NCBI GenBank assembly: GCA_038858525.1 | Contig: JAWCFL010000002.1 | Span: forward strand, 1-13,090 | Source of the DNA: Candidatus Jordarchaeales archaeon | Lineage (GTDB): Archaea; Asgardarchaeota; Jordiarchaeia; Jordiarchaeales; Freyrarchaeaceae | Length of the DNA: 13,090 nucleotides | Reading direction: 5' to 3' | The notes under the pieces: model-generated | Told to the model about the DNA's origin: nothing | The model's input: the letters and a program-made list of their open reading frames with translations, nothing else | Database searches by the model: none | Program-made: the position numbers and the translations under genes | Part shown: positions 1,946 to 7,213 of the stretch, one piece after another | How the letters are laid out: each line of letters begins with the position of its first letter | Numbering within the stretch: the first letter of the stretch is position 1

Positions 1946-3183
1946 TTACCACCGCTTCTCCTTCTCGTTGAACTCTCTGCTGTACCTTCGGAGCTCCTCC
2001 CTAGTCCAAGTCCAAGTCTTCTCCTTTTCAATGTCAATGAACGTGATCCTGTCCTCGCATGAGAAGCATGGGTCTATGGAAGCCAAAGCTATGGGTAAGT
2101 CTGCAATATAGCATCCCTTAAGGAGCTCTGCCACTGAGAGAATGTTCGCCATGGTCGGAGTCCTTATCTTAACCCTGTAAGGCTTATCAGTACCGTTGCT
2201 CTTCACGTAGTATATTAACTCGCCTCTCTGAGCCTCAAACCTAGCGTAAGCCTCCCCTTCAGGAACACGCCTTATGAGCTTCTCAGGCATAATGTCCCCC
2301 TTCTTAGGCATGTGGTCAAGGCACCACCTGATAATCTTAATGCTCTCGATAGTCTCAAGCACGCGCACAACCACTCTGCCAAAGGTATCACAAGTGTCCC
2401 ACGTGATAAGCTCAAAGTCCGCCTCGTCATACTTCAAGTGTGGGTCATTCTTCCTCACATCAAACTTGACTCCGGAAGCACGAATTGTAGGACCAACTGC
2501 CCCCAGCTTAACGCCAGTCACAGGGTCAAGGACACCCACGCCCTCAGTCCTCTTCCTCACCGTGCTCTCCTCAAGACACAGCTTCTTATAGTAGTTCGTT
2601 CTCTCCTCAAGGTAGTCGAGTCCCTTCCTAATTTTGTCAGCAAGCTCAGGAGAAATGTCCCGCCTCACACCGCCAAGAATATTCATTGCATAGTTAACCC
2701 TGTTACCCGAAATAGCCTCAAGCAGATCCATGACAACCTCTCTGTCCCTCCAAACATACATGAATAGCGTCTCAAATCCGATCTCCAGCCCAGCAGCACC
2801 AAGCCACAAAAGGTGACTATGAATCCTCTCCAACTCGGCAACTATAGTCCTAATGAAGTTCGCCTTTTCACTAACCTCGATCCCGCCAGCCTCCTCGGTA
2901 GCCATCATAAAAGTACACTGATGAGCGTTACTGCATATACCGCACACTCTTTCTACAAGGAAGGCCCCTTGAATATACGTCCTGTTTTCGAGTGCTTTCT
3001 CGATCCCCCTGTGGACGTATCCTATTCTGGGTTTTACGTCCACAACTGTTTCTCCTTCAACGAAGATCTGGAAATGCTCCGGCTCTTTTGCTCCCTTTAT
3101 TTGGTTTTTAGCTAAACGATGTTAGATAAAGGGATGTGCAAAGCCGGATGCTGCGGACCAACTGGTATTATTACTCGTGACAT
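1946..3183 (-). CDS. Group 4 [NiFe]-hydrogenase large subunit (NuoD/MbhL/EchE-like), two exons: join(3183-3136, 3085-1946), 395 aa after splicing
   Basis: L1 motif ERVCGIC and L2 motif DPCFSC are present, with an Mbh-like C-terminal extension and GYVHRGIEK. The ATG at 3183 has a perfect SD (GGAGGTG, 3200-3194) and encodes MSRVIIPVGPQHPALH. It rejoins EPEHFQIFVEGETVVDVKPRIG only after removal of 50 nt. Confidence 0.92.
3086..3135 (-). other. Predicted 50-nt BHB-type mRNA intron
   Basis: Minus strand: UCCGGCU-UUGC-AC|A-UCCCUUUAU…AUAAAGGGA-GCAA-AA|G-AGCCGGA. This gives a 7-bp exon helix, 4-bp central helix, two 3-nt bulges and a 9-bp intron helix. It contains an in-frame TAG (3114-3112) and shifts the frame. 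Confidence 0.88.
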
Positions 3184-3239
3184 TTTTTATTAGCACCTCC
3201 ATCAAGTTTAAAATATAAACGACCATATATTTGTTTTTC

Positions 3240-3719
3240 TTACTCCTGTGTTGGTTGCCAGTCCTTTCTGAGTGGGTAAACGCCTTCGGGCCAGTCTTCT
3301 GGGAGGATTAGGCGTTCCAGGTTTGGGTGTCCTTCGAACACTACGCCGAGGAGGTCATGGACTTCGCGTTCGTAGAAGTTGCTTGACGGCAGAATGTCGG
3401 TTATGGTTTCTAGTTTAGGGTTGGACTTGGGGACATATGTCCTCACCATGATGGCTGTTTGGGGTTCTTTGAACCTCCAGAGGTGGAATATTACTTCTAT
3501 GTTTTCTCCGAGGTCGACGCCTGTTATTGTGGAGACGTGCCATAGATCCCAGTTATCTCTCATGTACTCTACGGCTTTCCTGTGCGCTCCGGGCTTCACC
3601 TTTAGGTGGATTCTTCTTGGCCTTTTGATGTAAGCTTCTTCAAGTTGTGGTCCCAGGGCTGCTTTGAGCTCCTCGATAAGTTTTTCTTCGCTCTTAATTT
3701 CTTTCTTCTTTTTGCTCAT
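3240..3719 (-). CDS. NuoC/MbhK-like hydrogenase subunit
   Basis: Motifs HVSTITGVD, YEREVHDLLGVVFEGHP and LILPEDWPEGVYPLRKD, plus operon position. Confidence 0.93.
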   Translation of the reverse strand: MSKKKKEIKSEEKLIEELKAALGPQLEEAYIKRPRRIHLKVKPGAHRKAVEYMRDNWDLWHVSTITGVDLGENIEVIFHLWRFKEPQTAIMVRTYVPKSNPKLETITDILPSSNFYEREVHDLLGVVFEGHPNLERLILPEDWPEGVYPLRKDWQPTQE

Positions 3720-3729
3720 ATTACCCCCC

Positions 3730-4164
3730 CTACGATTTTTGGAGTTTGGCGAGGAGTTTGGCTACACCGTCTATTATTGCTTCAGGTTTGGGTGGGCATC
3801 CTGGGACGTAGACATCGACTGGGACGGCTGTGTCTATGCCTCCCTCTACTCCATAGCATCCCTTGAAGACCCCGCCTGTGCATGCGCAGTTGCCGACTGC
3901 CATAACGAACTTGGGGTCAGGAACTTGCTCGTAAAGCTTCCTAAATCTGGGTTTCATCTGCTTCGTGATTGGCCCTGTGCAGACGAGGACGTCGGCGTGT
4001 CTGGGGCTACCCATTAATATGATGCCGAAGCGTTCAACATCGAAGCGTGGCATTAACGCAGCTAGAATCTCTATGTCGCAGGCGTTACACCCACCAGTGT
4101 TTAGGTGAAGGATCCACGGTGATTTTGTTCTCGCCCACTTTACAAGCTTGCTGAGAAGACCCAT
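3730..4164 (-). CDS. NuoB/MbhJ/EchC-like [NiFe]-hydrogenase small subunit
   Basis: Motifs GGCNACDIE, SPRHADVLVCTG, AVGNCACTGG and YVPGCPPKPEAI. Confidence 0.95.
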   Translation of the reverse strand: MGLLSKLVKWARTKSPWILHLNTGGCNACDIEILAALMPRFDVERFGIILMGSPRHADVLVCTGPITKQMKPRFRKLYEQVPDPKFVMAVGNCACTGGVFKGCYGVEGGIDTAVPVDVYVPGCPPKPEAIIDGVAKLLAKLQKS

Positions 4165-4483
4165 TGTACCACTCCCAACGTGTTTACCATTTAAACTACC
4201 TTGACAGGGGAAGAATAGAATCGATCTCCCTTTTTTACTTTTTCGTTAAGAATATTTTGTTCGCTTTTTTGTTTGCATGGATAAGGAGCGTTAGCGCTAT
4301 AGTGCTTATCGGAACGATTCTTGTGATACAGGTTTACCGGATAGCTCTTTTTTCGAGAGTAGATTGTGTGTTTTGGCTTGTCATATGTAGGGGGTTAAGT
4401 GTCGTGTTATTTTTCTAGTTTATGTTAAAGTGCCCTTTTTGTTATTCTGGCATTTTCGTCATCATTACGAAAAAGTAAAAAGG

Positions 4484-4498
4484 GGGAAAGTTTTTAAT
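4484..4498 (+). promoter_or_regulatory. BRE/TATA promoter of the NuoA-like gene
   Basis: GGGAAAG-TTTTTAAT about 53 nt before the ATG at 4551. The same TTTTTAAT core preceded by purines recurs at 6044 and 7287. Confidence 0.5.
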
Positions 4499-4550
4499 TT
4501 GTGCGTCATAGTTGTTGATGGTCTTTCTTTGATTGCGTGGAGGTGGAGAA

Positions 4551-4868
4551 ATGTCTGGCCTGCTTACCTTGGGGATCGCTGTCCTAGTGAGTTTTCTGAT
4601 AGCGTGTGCGATTTACCTTACGGGAAGATTGATAGGTGCTAAGGGAGAGAAGACGCCGGGCAAGTTGGACCCTTACGCCTGTGGTGAGGATTATCCTCCT
4701 GAAAAGTTTCAGTACAGGGTGCACTTGGTTTACTACGCGATATTCTTCACATTGTTGGAGACCGCTGGTGTGATCGTGTTTACATCTTCTTTCAGTGACC
4801 CACTGTACGCGCTAATATACATGGTGTTCTTAGTAGTGGCGGCGCTCCTAGTCCTCTACAGGAGATAA
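4551..4868 (+). CDS. NuoA-like (complex I subunit A/3) membrane subunit, divergent from the hydrogenase cluster
   Basis: Three hydrophobic helices, loop KLDPYACGE (compare the YECG motif), YAIFFTLLE motif, and SD GGAGGTG before ATG 4551. Confidence 0.85.
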   Translation: MSGLLTLGIAVLVSFLIACAIYLTGRLIGAKGEKTPGKLDPYACGEDYPPEKFQYRVHLVYYAIFFTLLETAGVIVFTSSFSDPLYALIYMVFLVVAALLVLYRR

Positions 4869-4940
4869 TCTAATGAAGAGGCATCAATCCAGTTTGCCAC
4901 GCGAATAAAGTTCTTTTCCTCTTTTAAGTGCATGGTGATG

Positions 4941-4982
4941 TTTCTTTTTTGTTTTTTGTCTTTTGTTTCTGTTTTTTTGTTT
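4941..4982 (+). terminator. Long T-rich tract, likely terminator
   Basis: TTTCTTTTTTGTTTTTTGTCTTTTGTTTCTGTTTTTTTGTTT downstream of the NuoA-like gene. Confidence 0.45.
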
Positions 4983-5068
4983 GCGCGTTATTTCCCCTCT
5001 GCAGCTGACCATTGAGCTTTGGTTTCTCAAACGTAACAGTCATTTTAAGCGTGACTCTTAAGGCTGTC

Positions 5069-5081
5069 GAAAAATTATTTA
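5069..5081 (+). promoter_or_regulatory. Candidate BRE/TATA for the GcvH-like gene
   Basis: GAAAAA-TTATTTA about 40 nt upstream of the start. Confidence 0.35.
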
Positions 5082-5119
5082 GAGGGGTGGAAGCTACCTC
5101 TTTCGAGCGTTGATGGAGT

Positions 5120-5575
5120 GTGATTGGGTTGAAGTTTAAGTTTGAGCTTGAGGGCGAGACTGTTGAGGCGGAGCTTCCCGAGGATCTTTACTATCATCCT
5201 GACCATTGCTGGGCTAGAGTTGAAGGTGATAAGGTGAGGGTGGGCTTCGATGACTTTGGCCAGGTGACTGCTGGGCAGATCCTTTTCATCAGGCTTAAAC
5301 CTGCTGGCAAGGAGGTCAAGCAAAATGAGACCTTCGGCACTGTGGAGACGGGTAAGTGGGTTGGGCCTTTGAAGTCGCCAATCTCGGGGACGATAGCTGA
5401 GGTTAACCCGGAGATAAAGACGAACCCGTCACTGGTGAACAAGGATCCTTACGGAAAGGGGTGGCTAATACTGGTAAACCCGTCAAATTTAGAGAGGGAG
5501 CTCAAATCGCTCATTACGGGTGATGCTATAAAAGCGTGGATGGAGAAAGAAATTAAAGAAAGGCTGAAAAAATAA
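5120..5575 (+). CDS. gcvH: Glycine cleavage H-protein-like lipoyl carrier
   Basis: Motifs LYYHPDHCW, lipoyl-Lys motif VETGKWVGPLKSPISG, and NKDPYGKGW. The exact start is uncertain (GTG 5120 or TTG 5129). Confidence 0.9.
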   Translation: MIGLKFKFELEGETVEAELPEDLYYHPDHCWARVEGDKVRVGFDDFGQVTAGQILFIRLKPAGKEVKQNETFGTVETGKWVGPLKSPISGTIAEVNPEIKTNPSLVNKDPYGKGWLILVNPSNLERELKSLITGDAIKAWMEKEIKERLKK

Positions 5576-5745
5576 AACGAATTTATTCATCTGTTTTTCA
5601 TTTTTTGTGGTGGAAGGGTGGTGCGGTCTTCTAAACATTCAGAGGGGTTCCCCCTGTTTTTACATGCAAACTATTTTATGATGTGTCTGCTAGCGAGAAT
5701 GAGGTAAGTGTACTAACGGTTAATACGGTTAATATTATAATCCTG

Positions 5746-5924
5746 AGGGGGAAGCTTGTCTGCTTTTGGTTCAATGTGGAGGAAGGTGAGATAAAAGGAA
5801 CGTTAAACAATGATTTTGGGATGTACTAGGGGGAAGCTGAAAAGTTCGAGGAGAGATCAAGGAAGTTATGGGCTAGAAGGGGAAGCTGGTAGAAGTAATT
5901 TCCCATTACGATGAGGGGGAAGCA
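5746..5924 (+). repeat. Four dispersed copies of AGGGG(G)AAGC
   Basis: Copies at 5746, 5828, 5878 (4 G) and 5914, with an inverted partial copy TTCCCCCT at 5648-5655. Confidence 0.5.
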
Positions 5925-6036
5925 ATATTGTCCAGTGTAGTTTCAAAATGGGACCCATCAAGCTATACTTCGAGTAGTAGTGCAGAATTTTGAGTGGTAA
6001 AAAACAGTTTTCGTTATAGGTTTTATAGATTTTCTT

Positions 6037-6051
6037 GAAAAAATTTTTAAT
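6037..6051 (+). promoter_or_regulatory. BRE/TATA promoter of selD
   Basis: GAAAAAA-TTTTTAAT about 36-43 nt upstream of GTG 6087. Confidence 0.55.
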
Positions 6052-6086
6052 CGGTAGGAGAGAAGTGTTGCTGTGAAAGAAAGGGG

Positions 6087-7142
6087 GTGGAAAGGTTAGA
6101 GTACAGGATGACTAAGGTCGTAGCGCTTCACGGTTGAGCCTGCAAGGTCCCTCAAGCAAACCTAAGGATACTCCTGGAGAAGGCAGGAATCACCGTTCCG
6201 CGGAGTGTTCTGAGTGGCCCAGATGAGGACGCCGCCGTGATACGCATACGGGATGACATGGTTCTCGTGAAGACTATAGATTTCATAACGCCAAACGTTG
6301 ATGAAGGTTATGTTCAGGGGAAGATAGCGGCCGCGAATGCGACGAGTGACGTGTACAGCGCAGCCACGTGCGGGCTGCGTGCATAAGCAAAAGGAGCGAC
6401 GGAAATAGCTGGATTCTTAGCGGTTTTAGGAGTTCCTACTGATATGCCTTTAGAGATAGCGGTGGAGATTCTTCGTGGGATCAGAGATTACTTGGAAGAA
6501 GTTGGAGGATCCTTCGTTGGTGGGCACACCATATTTAACCCTTGGCCTCTTTCAGGTGGTGAAGTTACTGCTGTAGCTCACCCTGACCAGATCGTTTACC
6601 AGAGAGGCGCTAAGGTGGGGGATGTGTTCGTCTTGACCAAGCCGTTGGGGACTCAGCCAGCAATGGCCGTTTATAGGACCATTAAGGACCCAGATACTTG
6701 CGAAATGGTGCTTAGTGTGCTCTCAAGAAGAGAAGCGGAAGAGCTTGTTGAGAAGGCGATAAAGTTCATGACGACTTCTAATAAGCCAGTTGCTGAAGCT
6801 ATGCTGGAAGTTAAGCCCAACGCTGCAACGGACGTGACGGGCTTCGGGCTAGTGGGGCACGCTGAAAACATAGCTAGAGAAAGTGGAGTAGACGTTGAAA
6901 TACAGGCCATACCCGTTATGAAGAACGCGGTACAGGTTTCCGAGCTTTTTAGCTACGGGCTGGAGAGAGGTGAGGCGGCAGAGACGTCTGGTGGAATCTT
7001 AGTAGCACTGCCACGAAAAAGAGTTGACGAGTTCATGGATGCGCTAAGAAGCCGAGGAGTCACAGCTTACATCATTGGGGAAGCTAAGCAGGGCAATGGG
7101 AAGGTCACCGTGAAGCCGGATGTCGAATTAATAGAGGTTTAG
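6087..7142 (+). CDS. selD: Selenophosphate synthetase (selenoprotein, UGA 6135-6137 = Sec), two exons: join(6087-6356, 6387-7142), 341 aa after splicing
   Basis: MERLEYRMTKVVALHG-U-ACK matches the archaeal SelD LHGUACK motif. Also present: DEDAAV, KTIDFITP, AAANATSDVY|AKG, GGHT, LTKPLGTQ, TDVTGFGLVGH and AETSGG. The alternative start is ATG 6108. Confidence 0.93.
6357..6386 (+). other. Predicted 30-nt relaxed-BHB mRNA intron in selD
   Basis: GUGU-AC|A-GCGCAGCC-(ACGUGCG)-GGCUGCGU-GCAU-AA|G: an 8-bp intron helix and a 4-bp central helix with two G-U pairs. It contains an in-frame TAA (6384-6386). Removal restores SDVYAKG. Confidence 0.8.
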
Positions 7143-7164
7143 GTGATGAAGGGGGAAGATAAAG

Positions 7165-7213
7165 GCTGTTTCCTTCCACCAGAACCCCCACAGCAGTGGG
7201 CTGAGTAGACAGC
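7165..7213 (+). promoter_or_regulatory. Candidate archaeal-type SECIS in the selD 3' UTR
   Basis: Imperfect hairpin closed by GCTGT/ACAGC with core CA-GAA-CCC…GGG-C-TG. It resembles the archaeal GAA-SSS-loop-SSS-A core but has C in place of the 3' A. Confidence 0.4.

What the first reader, a model, noticed from the sequence alone, without database searches (positions are those of the whole stretch)
3078..6395. Two mRNA introns within 3.3 kb share a splice signature: possible genome-wide EndA-dependent mRNA splicing
Seen: the two unrelated inserts have near-identical junctions. The 5' sites are UGYAC|A (UUGCAC|A, GUGUAC|A) and the 3' sites are GCAWAA|G (GCAAAA|G, GCAUAA|G), while the intron interiors share no evident similarity (one AU-rich, one GC-rich). 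Two in one 13-kb housekeeping window suggests many more genome-wide. Inference: this lineage may carry a population of short BHB introns in protein genes, spread by reverse splicing or using tRNA-splicing machinery as a post-transcriptional control layer. Established: relaxed motifs outside a tRNA body are cleaved mainly by heteromeric (alpha-beta)2 or epsilon2 endonucleases, so the host is predicted to encode such an enzyme.
Basis: inference. Interest (0 to 1): 0.92.

Follow-up and report, generated by a model that had tools for sequence, protein, structure and literature searches.

The report
tRNA-type mini-introns in protein genes
Two housekeeping genes of this hot-spring Asgard archaeon (a hydrogenase/complex-I-type subunit and selenophosphate synthetase) are each split by a tiny intron of the kind normally cut out of tRNAs, and at least nine other protein genes in the genome carry the same kind of intron; published work describes such coding-region introns for only one archaeal gene.

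Summary
Both inserts are real. A 50-nt insert (window 3086-3135, minus strand) splits a NuoD-like [NiFe]-hydrogenase large-subunit gene. It folds as a perfect bulge-helix-bulge (BHB) motif. All 29 related genomes inspected lack it and read straight through at exactly the predicted cut sites. A 30-nt insert (6357-6386) splits the selenocysteine-containing selD gene. It sits at the same codon boundary in all 10 order genomes where that region is assembled, with lengths of 30, 31 or 34 nt, and 7 of its 8 stem pairs show compensatory changes. It is absent from the outgroups. One public read assembly of a relative lacks exactly those 30 nt.

My genome scan, checked by Pfam profile continuity, finds nine more such introns: cbf5, kae1, pcm, gatE, EF-2, ppsA, hypD, a FAD oxidase gene and an Fe-S gene. 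The genome encodes a two-subunit EndA whose alpha subunit has the broad-specificity loop lysine, and RtcB.

The "shared signature" reduces to A-rich bulges (A-N|A and A-A|N). The central helices differ between introns. I found no RNA evidence for these two introns in this species. Earlier agents of this scan reported similar introns elsewhere in this genome.

The parts
3136..3183 (-). Exon 1 of the NuoD-like / group-4 [NiFe]-hydrogenase large-subunit gene (16 codons, MSRVIIPVGPQHPALH), preceded by a GGAGGTG ribosome-binding motif
   Evidence: Translation. The same N-terminus is continuous with exon 2 in 29 related genomes.
3086..3135 (-). 50-nt BHB intron, AU-rich, with a 9-bp internal stem
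   Evidence: It is absent from all other genomes inspected. It is identical in 6 loci from several independent assemblies.
1946..3085 (-). Exon 2 of the NuoD-like gene (379 codons; both CxxC nickel-binding motifs are present)
   Evidence: Pfam Complex1_49kDa and NiFeSe_Hases; translation.
3078..3148 (-). Strict hBHBh' motif: outer helix UCCGGCU/AGCCGGA (exon-exon), central helix UUGC/GCAA, bulges AC|A and AA|G, inner helix 9 bp
   Evidence: Own scan, score 50; fold.
6108..6356 (+). selD exon 1 (83 codons; selenocysteine TGA at 6135-6137)
   Evidence: Translation. Pfam AIRS profile positions 2-48. HG-U-xCK is conserved in relatives.
6357..6386 (+). 30-nt intron, GC-rich, with an 8-bp stem and a terminal in-frame TAA
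6387..7142 (+). selD exon 2 (251 codons plus stop)
   Evidence: Pfam AIRS profile positions 49-100 and AIRS_C.
6351..6387 (+). Relaxed HBh' motif: central helix GUGU/GCAU, 5' bulge AC|A, inner helix 6358-6365 / 6373-6380, 3' site AA|G with no outer helix
   Evidence: RNAalifold and pair counts on 10 genomes.

Best explanation
Both inserts are archaeal bulge-helix-bulge (tRNA-type) introns inside pre-mRNAs. After transcription, the two-subunit splicing endonuclease EndA cuts two nucleotides into each 3-nt bulge, and RtcB joins the exons. For the hydrogenase/NuoD-like gene this gives ...PQHPALH|EPEHF..., and for selenophosphate synthetase ...SDVY|AKGAT.... The unspliced messages can only give truncated proteins.

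The nuoD intron is a canonical hBHBh' motif gained recently, in this species only. The selD intron is a relaxed HBh' motif inherited from the ancestor of the order (Jordarchaeales: Freyr- and Jordarchaeaceae).

They belong to a set of at least 11 mini-introns (14-50 nt) in protein genes of this genome. These introns share geometry and A-rich bulges but no sequence.

Shown here: the structures, the boundaries, their conservation and the presence of the enzymes. Inferred: cleavage and ligation in vivo.
For: nuoD insert
- The BHB is perfect and ranks top in the genome for introns under 200 nt.
- Its 50 nt lie exactly between codons that are adjacent in all 29 other genomes inspected, including congeners with 94-95% identical protein.
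- The exon helix forms only with this species' synonymous codons.
- The allele is identical in 6 loci shown, out of 27 contigs from several assemblies.
- It is the only copy of the gene in the genome.

selD insert
- It sits at the same codon boundary in all 10 order genomes where the region is assembled. Its lengths are 30, 31 or 34 nt, so in two species it shifts the frame. It is absent from 9 outgroup loci.
- All 120 pair cells are paired, 7 of 8 stem pairs carry compensatory changes, and 0 of 500 shuffles reach the observed score. RNAalifold predicts the same fold on its own.
- The Pfam AIRS profile runs 2-48 | 49-100 across the junction.
- All Jordarchaeales selD gene calls in the protein database are truncated at the insert.
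- A Logan contig (SRR28530378) lacks exactly the 30 nt that the sibling-run contig has. The flanks are 100% and 99.9% identical.

Genome context
- Nine further BHB-bounded inserts show Pfam profile continuity across the junction.
- ORF-restoring strict motifs number 8 against 1 for a mirror-geometry control at score 40 or more.

Machinery
- The EndA alpha subunit carries the specific-loop lysine (PMC5829648).
- A second EndA paralogue lacks the catalytic His.
- RtcB is present.
Against: There is no RNA-level evidence for either intron in this species.
- Exact spliced-junction searches of JGI metagenome contigs found nothing.
- No spliced protein form of this species' NuoD, SelD or EF-2 is in the protein collection.

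I do not know the library type of the intron-less selD contig. It could be a precise intron-loss allele rather than RNA.

The selD motif lacks the outer helix, and its central helix has two G-U pairs, so cleavage at the 3' site rests on the broad-specificity enzyme.

The nuoD intron occurs in one species only, so it cannot be tested by covariation.
Confidence: 0.86

Rival explanations
1. The nuoD insert is a recent disruptive insertion. The gene would be a young pseudogene, or would be expressed only as the 365-residue form that starts at GTG 3043.
For: The insert is found in one species only. Gene callers in several assemblies call the 365-residue ORF. No spliced form was found.
Against: A random 50-nt insertion would not create a perfect hBHBh' motif whose canonical cut sites restore the ancestral codon junction to the base. 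The start codon, ribosome-binding motif, exon 1 and the 14 codons between the junction and the GTG are all intact. The allele is fixed across samples, in a single-copy gene of an intact operon. Ten other genes in the genome carry the same device. They include EF-2, kae1 and gatE, which I take to be indispensable from general knowledge, not from a test here.
Confidence: 0.05
2. The inserts are skipped during translation (ribosomal bypassing as in phage T4 gene 60, frameshifting or stop read-through) rather than removed from the RNA.
For: The nuoD gap is 50 nt, like the T4 gene 60 gap, with a hairpin and an early stop. The selD insert of this species is in frame, with one stop.
Against: There are no matching take-off and landing codons at either insert (sequence). 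The selD inserts of 31 and 34 nt in congeners would need a different recoding event in each species. The conserved feature is BHB geometry with cuts 2 nt into 3-nt bulges, which no bypass mechanism needs.
Confidence: 0.03
3. selD is a genuinely split gene. The N- and C-terminal pieces would be translated separately and assemble, and the conserved hairpin would serve another purpose, such as a selenocysteine-related RNA element.
For: Databases annotate only the 232-250-residue C-terminal piece. The gene is itself a selenoprotein gene.
Against: The break falls inside the AIRS domain at profile position 48|49. There is no conserved start codon after the insert: the called starts differ between species. 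A SECIS-like element already sits in the 3' UTR. An intron-less version with the exact predicted junction exists. The same geometry and bulges recur in 10 unrelated genes.
Confidence: 0.04
4. The two introns are copies of one mobile intron family that targets a TGYAC...GCAWAAG site (homing or reverse splicing), as the shared junction letters suggested.
For: Both have identical bulges (ACA and AAG), and 2 of 4 central-helix pairs are the same. Introns are gained and lost between congeners.
Against: The interiors are unrelated, and neither intron has any other copy in the genome. Nine other introns share only the A-rich bulges and have different central helices. The two introns differ greatly in age: order-wide against one species.
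Confidence: 0.04

Closest known systems
BHB intron in the cbf5 pre-mRNA of Crenarchaeota (Watanabe 2002; Yokobori 2009, PMC2738675)
   Same: A short BHB-bounded intron inside a protein-coding region, removed by the tRNA-splicing enzymes, and gained and lost between lineages. This genome also has a 30-nt BHB intron in its own cbf5.
   Different: The genes are different (a NuoD-like hydrogenase subunit and selD) and the phylum is different (Asgard). There are at least 11 interrupted protein genes per genome instead of one. The literature I could search states that cbf5 is the only coding-region case (PMC7714728).
Non-canonical tRNA introns of Freyarchaeia/Jordarchaeia and Thermoproteales
   Same: Same host lineage, which is known for 92-95% intron-containing tRNA genes (PMC11291895; bioRxiv 10.64898/2026.10.13.758758). 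Same strict and relaxed (HBh') motifs, and the same (alpha-beta)2 EndA with the L1 loop (PMC5829648).
   Different: The substrate is an mRNA with no tRNA body. The exon halves of the motif are built from codons, so protein and RNA constraints overlap. Neither paper mentions mRNA introns.
BHB element in the 5' UTR of Haloferax volcanii HVO_1309 mRNA (PMC7714728)
   Same: An mRNA cut by EndA at a BHB motif.
   Different: That element lies in an untranslated leader, not in the reading frame, and is a single case in a genome with a homodimeric EndA.
Unconventional HAC1/XBP1 mRNA splicing in eukaryotes (IRE1 plus an RNA ligase: RtcB in animals, Trl1 in yeast)
   Same: A very short intron in a coding region whose removal changes the frame, with ligation by the tRNA ligase (own knowledge).
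   Different: The cut is made by IRE1 at paired stem-loops, not by the tRNA endonuclease at a BHB motif, and it is a regulated stress switch.

Membership tests
Archaeal BHB intron (EndA/RtcB substrate) | A 4-bp central helix flanked by two 3-nt bulges on opposite strands, closed by outer helices (hBHBh') | tested here: met
   nuoD insert: outer helix 7 bp, central helix UUGC/GCAA, bulges ACA and AAG, inner helix 9 bp.
Archaeal BHB intron (EndA/RtcB substrate) | The same motif for the selD insert | tested here: inconclusive
   The central helix GUGU/GCAU, the 5' bulge and the inner helix are present and conserved. There is no outer helix after the 3' site, so this is the relaxed HBh' form, not the strict motif.
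Archaeal BHB intron (EndA/RtcB substrate) | Cuts 2 nt into each bulge give the functional mature sequence | tested here: met
   The predicted junctions equal the uninterrupted codon junctions of intron-less orthologues. They also give Pfam AIRS continuity 48|49. An intron-less contig has exactly this selD junction.
Archaeal BHB intron (EndA/RtcB substrate) | The structure, not the sequence, is conserved (compensatory changes) | tested here: met
   selD: 7 of 8 inner-helix pairs have changes on both sides, 100% of cells are paired, and 0 of 500 shuffles reach the observed score. nuoD: not testable, because only one species carries it.
Archaeal BHB intron (EndA/RtcB substrate) | The host encodes an endonuclease able to cut relaxed motifs, and the ligase | tested here: met
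   EndA alpha matches A. pernix 3P1Z_B at E = 1.6e-48 with an ungapped specific loop, and its K46 aligns with K44 (PMC5829648). The second paralogue has Ala at the catalytic His. RtcB matches at E = 5e-181.
Archaeal BHB intron (EndA/RtcB substrate) | Excision and exon ligation observed in RNA | not testable with these tools
   No spliced junction was found for this species. One intron-less selD contig comes from a relative, but its library type is unknown.
cbf5 pre-mRNA intron family | The intron lies in the cbf5 (pseudouridine synthase) gene | tested here: not met
   The two inserts lie in a Complex1_49kDa/NiFeSe_Hases gene and an AIRS/AIRS_C (selD) gene. They work like the cbf5 intron but are not members of that family.

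The most novel reading that the evidence does not exclude
In this Asgard lineage, tRNA-type introns may be actively colonising and leaving protein-coding genes. Differences between congeners include a species-specific nuoD intron, a different 59-nt nuoD intron in a sister species, and an EF-2 intron present in three species and precisely absent in a fourth. The introns sit preferentially in the most conserved catalytic motifs. Expression of translation, energy and selenium-metabolism genes would then depend on, and could be gated by, the tRNA-splicing machinery. That would be a prokaryotic precedent for an intron-burdened proteome in the closest relatives of eukaryotes.
Probability: 0.3. Interest if true: 0.92.

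Novelty: new variant of a known kind. Interest (0 to 1): 0.8.

Why it matters
The literature I could search treats coding-region BHB introns as a curiosity of one crenarchaeal gene (cbf5). Here a single Asgard genome carries at least eleven. They lie in genes as central as EF-2, kae1, gatE, PEP synthase, a respiratory hydrogenase subunit and selD. One of them is conserved across an order, and others are gained or lost within a genus.

This has three consequences.
- Standard annotation systematically truncates these genes. Public databases list selD as 232-250 residues and this NuoD-like protein as 365 residues.
- Essential gene expression in these archaea must depend on EndA and RtcB.
- Intron gain, loss and site preference in protein genes become testable in the prokaryotic lineage closest to eukaryotes.

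Tried and rejected
- **Junction searches.** Exact spliced-junction searches of JGI metagenome contigs for selD and nuoD gave 0 hits each.
- **Spliced protein forms.** I looked for spliced forms of this species' NuoD, SelD and EF-2 in the protein collection. Only truncated calls or orthologues from other species turned up. The 734-residue EF-2 (P0302) is the intron-less genomic gene of a congener, not RNA.
- **Library type of SRR28530378.** Not found in the paper library.
- **Relaxed genome-wide scans.** Scans for HBh' and hBH motifs, and for A-rich bulges, with a coding-potential filter gave real counts about equal to mirror or control counts. They are dominated by gene-to-gene junctions, for example secE|spt5 and cdc6|HTH. 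Only high-scoring short hits were kept, and each was then verified.
- **Bulge comparison with tRNA introns.** ARAGORN finds only 11 tRNAs with unreliable intron boundaries, so this comparison was not made.
- **Rfam.** No family matched in the window.
- **Intron paralogues.** BLAST of all 11 introns against the genome gave only chance 12-14-mers.
- **T4-type bypass, read-through and split-gene readings.** Considered and rejected (see rival explanations).
- **The search for related loci on genome contigs.** It returned only distant selD genes, because the near relatives are masked.
Full report
**What is in the window.** The window is the first 13 kb of contig C2 of a 2.09-Mb, 63-contig MAG that is 92.7% complete. 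Source names on its closest proteins (Candidatus Jordarchaeales, Freyarchaeota and Jordarchaeia) and earlier notes of this scan place it in the Asgard class Jordarchaeia/Freyarchaeia.

On the minus strand lie nuoB-, nuoC-, nuoD- and nuoH-like genes. The 'nuoD' has both CxxC nickel motifs and matches NiFeSe_Hases, so it is a group-4 [NiFe]-hydrogenase large subunit. On the plus strand lie gcvH and selD. selD has an in-frame TGA at 6135-6137 that aligns with TGA in the relatives and with Cys in one outgroup, so it is a selenocysteine codon.

**Insert 1 (window 3086-3135, minus strand, 50 nt).**
- Reading the minus strand from ATG 3183, sixteen codons (MSRVIIPVGPQHPALH) are followed by 50 nt that shift the frame. 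The gene then continues as EPEHFQIFVEGE....
- The RNA forms an outer helix UCCGGCU/AGCCGGA made of exon sequence, a central helix UUGC/GCAA, bulges AC|A and AA|G, and a 9-bp inner helix. This is a textbook hBHBh' motif.
- The fold energy is -29 kcal/mol against -13.9 +/- 2.6 for shuffles.
- In my scan of both strands of the whole genome it scores 50. That is third of 18,492 matches and the best with an intron below 200 nt.
- In 29 other genomes, including congeners whose protein is 94-95% identical, the codons CAC and GAG are adjacent (...PQHPALH|EPEH...). The insert therefore occupies exactly the interval predicted by cutting 2 nt into each bulge.
- The outer helix forms only with this species' synonymous codons (CCG GCU ... 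GAG CCG G). The congeners' codons pair at 4 of 7 or fewer positions.
- The allele is not an assembly artefact. Truncated 365-residue calls occur on 27 contigs from NCBI, ENA, JGI and Logan assemblies, and the insert is identical in the six loci I read.
- The genome has one copy of the gene.

**Insert 2 (window 6357-6386, plus strand, 30 nt).**
- In this species it is in frame but ends in TAA.
- It sits at the same codon boundary (DVY|A) in all ten genomes of the order for which the region is assembled: four from the window's family and six from the sister family. Its length is 30 nt in eight of them, 31 nt in one and 34 nt in one, so in two species it shifts the frame.
- Nine outgroup loci read ...ND(L/V/I)(Y/F)|A(K/M)... 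without it.
- The stem sequence is entirely different in the two families (GCGCAGCC/GGCUGCGU against AUGUAAAU/AUUUACAU), yet every pair is kept. All 120 cells are paired, 7 of 8 inner-helix pairs have changes on both sides, and 0 of 500 shuffles reach the observed covariation. Sliding the partners by one column drops pairing to about 20%.
- RNAalifold independently returns the same structure: a 4-bp helix GUGU/GCAU, a 3-nt bulge and an 8-bp helix.
- The two variable positions of the central helix also change in the pairing-compatible direction: G-U to G-C in one congener and U-G to U-A in a metagenomic relative.
- No outer helix follows the 3' site, so this is the relaxed HBh' form.
- The Pfam AIRS profile runs 2-48 in exon 1 and 49-100 in exon 2.
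- Every Jordarchaeales selD in the 5.8-billion-protein collection is called as a 232-250-residue fragment that starts just after the insert. More distant Asgard SelD proteins are 298-326 residues and continuous.
- There is one exception. A 311-residue protein (P0355) reads ...NDVY|AIGATD.... Its contig (Logan SRR28530378, 3,490 nt) is 100% and 99.9% identical to a 3,520-nt contig of the sibling run SRR28530379, but lacks exactly the 30-nt insert. I could not determine the library type. It is either a spliced transcript or a precise intron-loss allele. Both confirm the predicted boundaries.

**Is there a genome-wide population?**
- I scanned the genome for the BHB geometry and, as a control, for its mirror image (bulges on the wrong sides).
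- Total motif counts are equal in the two geometries. Motifs whose removal joins two long open frames are enriched at high scores: 8 against 1 at score 40 or more, and 20 against 9 at 36 or more. With a codon-usage filter, the count is 7 against 1 for introns of 40 nt or less with helix score 34 or more.
- I then tested the top hits by Pfam on each exon separately. The profiles run on across the junction as follows.

| Gene | Intron (nt) | Pfam profile across the junction |
|---|---|---|
| ppsA | 20 | PPDK_N 2-113 \| 115-317 |
| kae1 | 14 | TsaD 2-61 \| 64-264 |
| pcm | 31 | PCMT 2-59 \| 61-208 |
| EF-2 | 29 | GTP_EFTU 2-80 \| 82-187 |
| gatE | 30 | GatB_N 2-37 \| 47-276 |
| FAD-linked oxidase | 24 | FAD_binding_4 1-80 \| 93-139 |
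| hypD | 16 | exon 2 starts at profile position 29 |
| cbf5 | 30 | TruB_N from position 17 |
| Fe-S/CCG protein | 27 | Fer4_8 from position 11 |

- With nuoD and selD that makes eleven.
- Hits that failed the test were ordinary gene junctions (secE|spt5, cdc6|HTH).
- Relaxed scans give no excess over controls. The population is therefore of the order of one to two dozen, not hundreds.
- Four of the eleven lie on contig C2, which is 6% of the genome. Two in one window is partly luck.

**The 'shared signature'.**
- Across the eleven introns, the first and third bulge positions at the 5' site are A in 10 of 11. The first two positions at the 3' site are A in 10 and 9 of 11. Genome A content is 0.26, which gives a binomial P of about 2e-5 and 2e-4. 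My scans did not use bulge identity.
- The central helices are all different (UUGC, GUGU, CACU, GGGG, CGCC, GACG, ACGU, CGGG, UCAG, GGCU, GAGG).
- No intron has a second copy or a recognisable relative in the genome, so I see no evidence for a copy-and-paste family.

**Turnover.**
- The nuoD intron is confined to this species.
- A congener (G002) has instead a 59-nt BHB intron elsewhere in the same gene, after ...VCGICSNA and inside the His codon. Its central helix is CGCG/CGCG, and its removal restores the protein.
- The EF-2 intron is present in three species of the genus, with compensatory stem changes. It is precisely absent in a fourth species and in the sister genus.
- All eleven junctions fall in strongly conserved motifs, for example GPQHPALH|EP, DTPGHV|DF, GTL|DP, GPG|LG and SSASAED|LPG. 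This is my reading of the junction peptides.

**Machinery.**
- The genome has two EndA paralogues of about 190 residues each.
- One matches the catalytic alpha subunit of the Aeropyrum pernix (alpha-beta)2 enzyme at E = 1.6e-48. It keeps Tyr/His/Lys and an ungapped specific loop in which K46 aligns with the lysine K44 that confers broad specificity (PMC5829648).
- The other has Ala at the catalytic His in its alignment to the M. jannaschii enzyme.
- RtcB is present.
- This agrees with published statements that Asgard archaea have (alpha-beta)2 EndA with the L1 loop (PMC5829648). It also agrees with reports that Freyarchaeia/Jordarchaeia tRNA genes are 92-95% intron-containing (PMC11291895; bioRxiv 10.64898/2026.10.13.758758). 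ARAGORN recognises only 11 tRNAs here.

**Comparison with the literature.** The library I could search states that, apart from a 5'-UTR element in Haloferax, only the cbf5 mRNA of Crenarchaeota carries a BHB intron (PMC7714728; PMC2738675). The two Asgard tRNA-intron papers do not mention mRNA introns, and further searches found nothing. Earlier agents of this scan reported similar introns in other windows of this genome (gatE, ppsA, an Fe-S gene, a 29-nt case, EndoQ, SRP RNA) and in sister genomes. I re-found and tested gatE, ppsA and the Fe-S gene independently. The 29-nt EF-2 intron I tested may be their 29-nt case. I did not examine EndoQ or the SRP RNA.

**Verdict.** What remains inferred is the act of splicing itself for these two introns in this species. 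The mode of spread and any regulatory use are open.

Noticed in passing
window 7143-7200 (+): Directly after the selD stop lies a hairpin with AUGA...AAA...GA features. It is followed by a second small hairpin (CCCCCACAGCAGUGGG). It is conserved in position, with changed stem sequences, in 12 genomes. It looks like a eukaryote-like SECIS element for selD's own UGA. Rfam gave no hit.
   Followed up: partly
window 5744-5923 (+): There are four copies of TGAGGGGGAAGC-like 12-mers (spacing 82, 49 and 37 nt) and a tandem ACGGTTAAT x2. They lie in the 530-nt gene-free spacer between gcvH and selD, which has a strong G-over-C skew. There are C/D-box-like AUGAUG and CUGA motifs nearby. The function is unknown.
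   Followed up: partly
L008 (G002 C1, nuoD-like gene), oriented positions 1525-1583: A sister species lacks the window's nuoD intron but has a different 59-nt BHB intron in the same gene. It lies inside the His codon after VCGICSNA, next to the N-terminal nickel-binding CxxC motif.
   Followed up: yes
G000 C4:81118-81146 and L157-L163: The 29-nt EF-2 intron (in the DTPGHV|DF switch motif) is present in three species of the genus, with compensatory stem changes. It is precisely absent in a fourth species and in the sister genus, which suggests intron loss or repeated gain.
   Followed up: partly
G000 C7:355-370, C18:37597-37612, C12:6353-6368; also C43:195-351, C33:17313-17471, C55:351-507: A repeated IS-like element at contig ends carries a 16-nt BHB-like motif (UUGC UG|A ... 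GCAA GU|U). The motif sits between two reading frames (..EGVKKLIA | VKLQPNDEQ.., TnpB-like N-terminus). There is a further BHB-like pairing of about 157 nt around it. This may relate to the circular IS200/IS605 omega-RNAs described in PMC12558985.
   Followed up: no
G000 C21:5929-5956 (+), C25:8156-8184 (-), C1:130679-130707 (+): Further candidate mini-introns with A-rich bulges. One appears to split a radical-SAM CxxxCxxC motif (..PSGT|IFFNMCTFKCVFCQN). None was verified by profile continuity.
   Followed up: no
G000 contig C2: Four of the eleven verified mRNA introns (nuoD, selD, the Fe-S gene at 18526-18552 and gatE at 68773-68802) lie on one 123-kb contig, which is 6% of the genome. About 0.65 would be expected.
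   Followed up: no
whole genome G000: ARAGORN recognises only 11 tRNA genes in a 92.7%-complete genome, most of them with odd intron calls. This is consistent with heavily interrupted tRNA genes that standard tools miss.
   Followed up: partly
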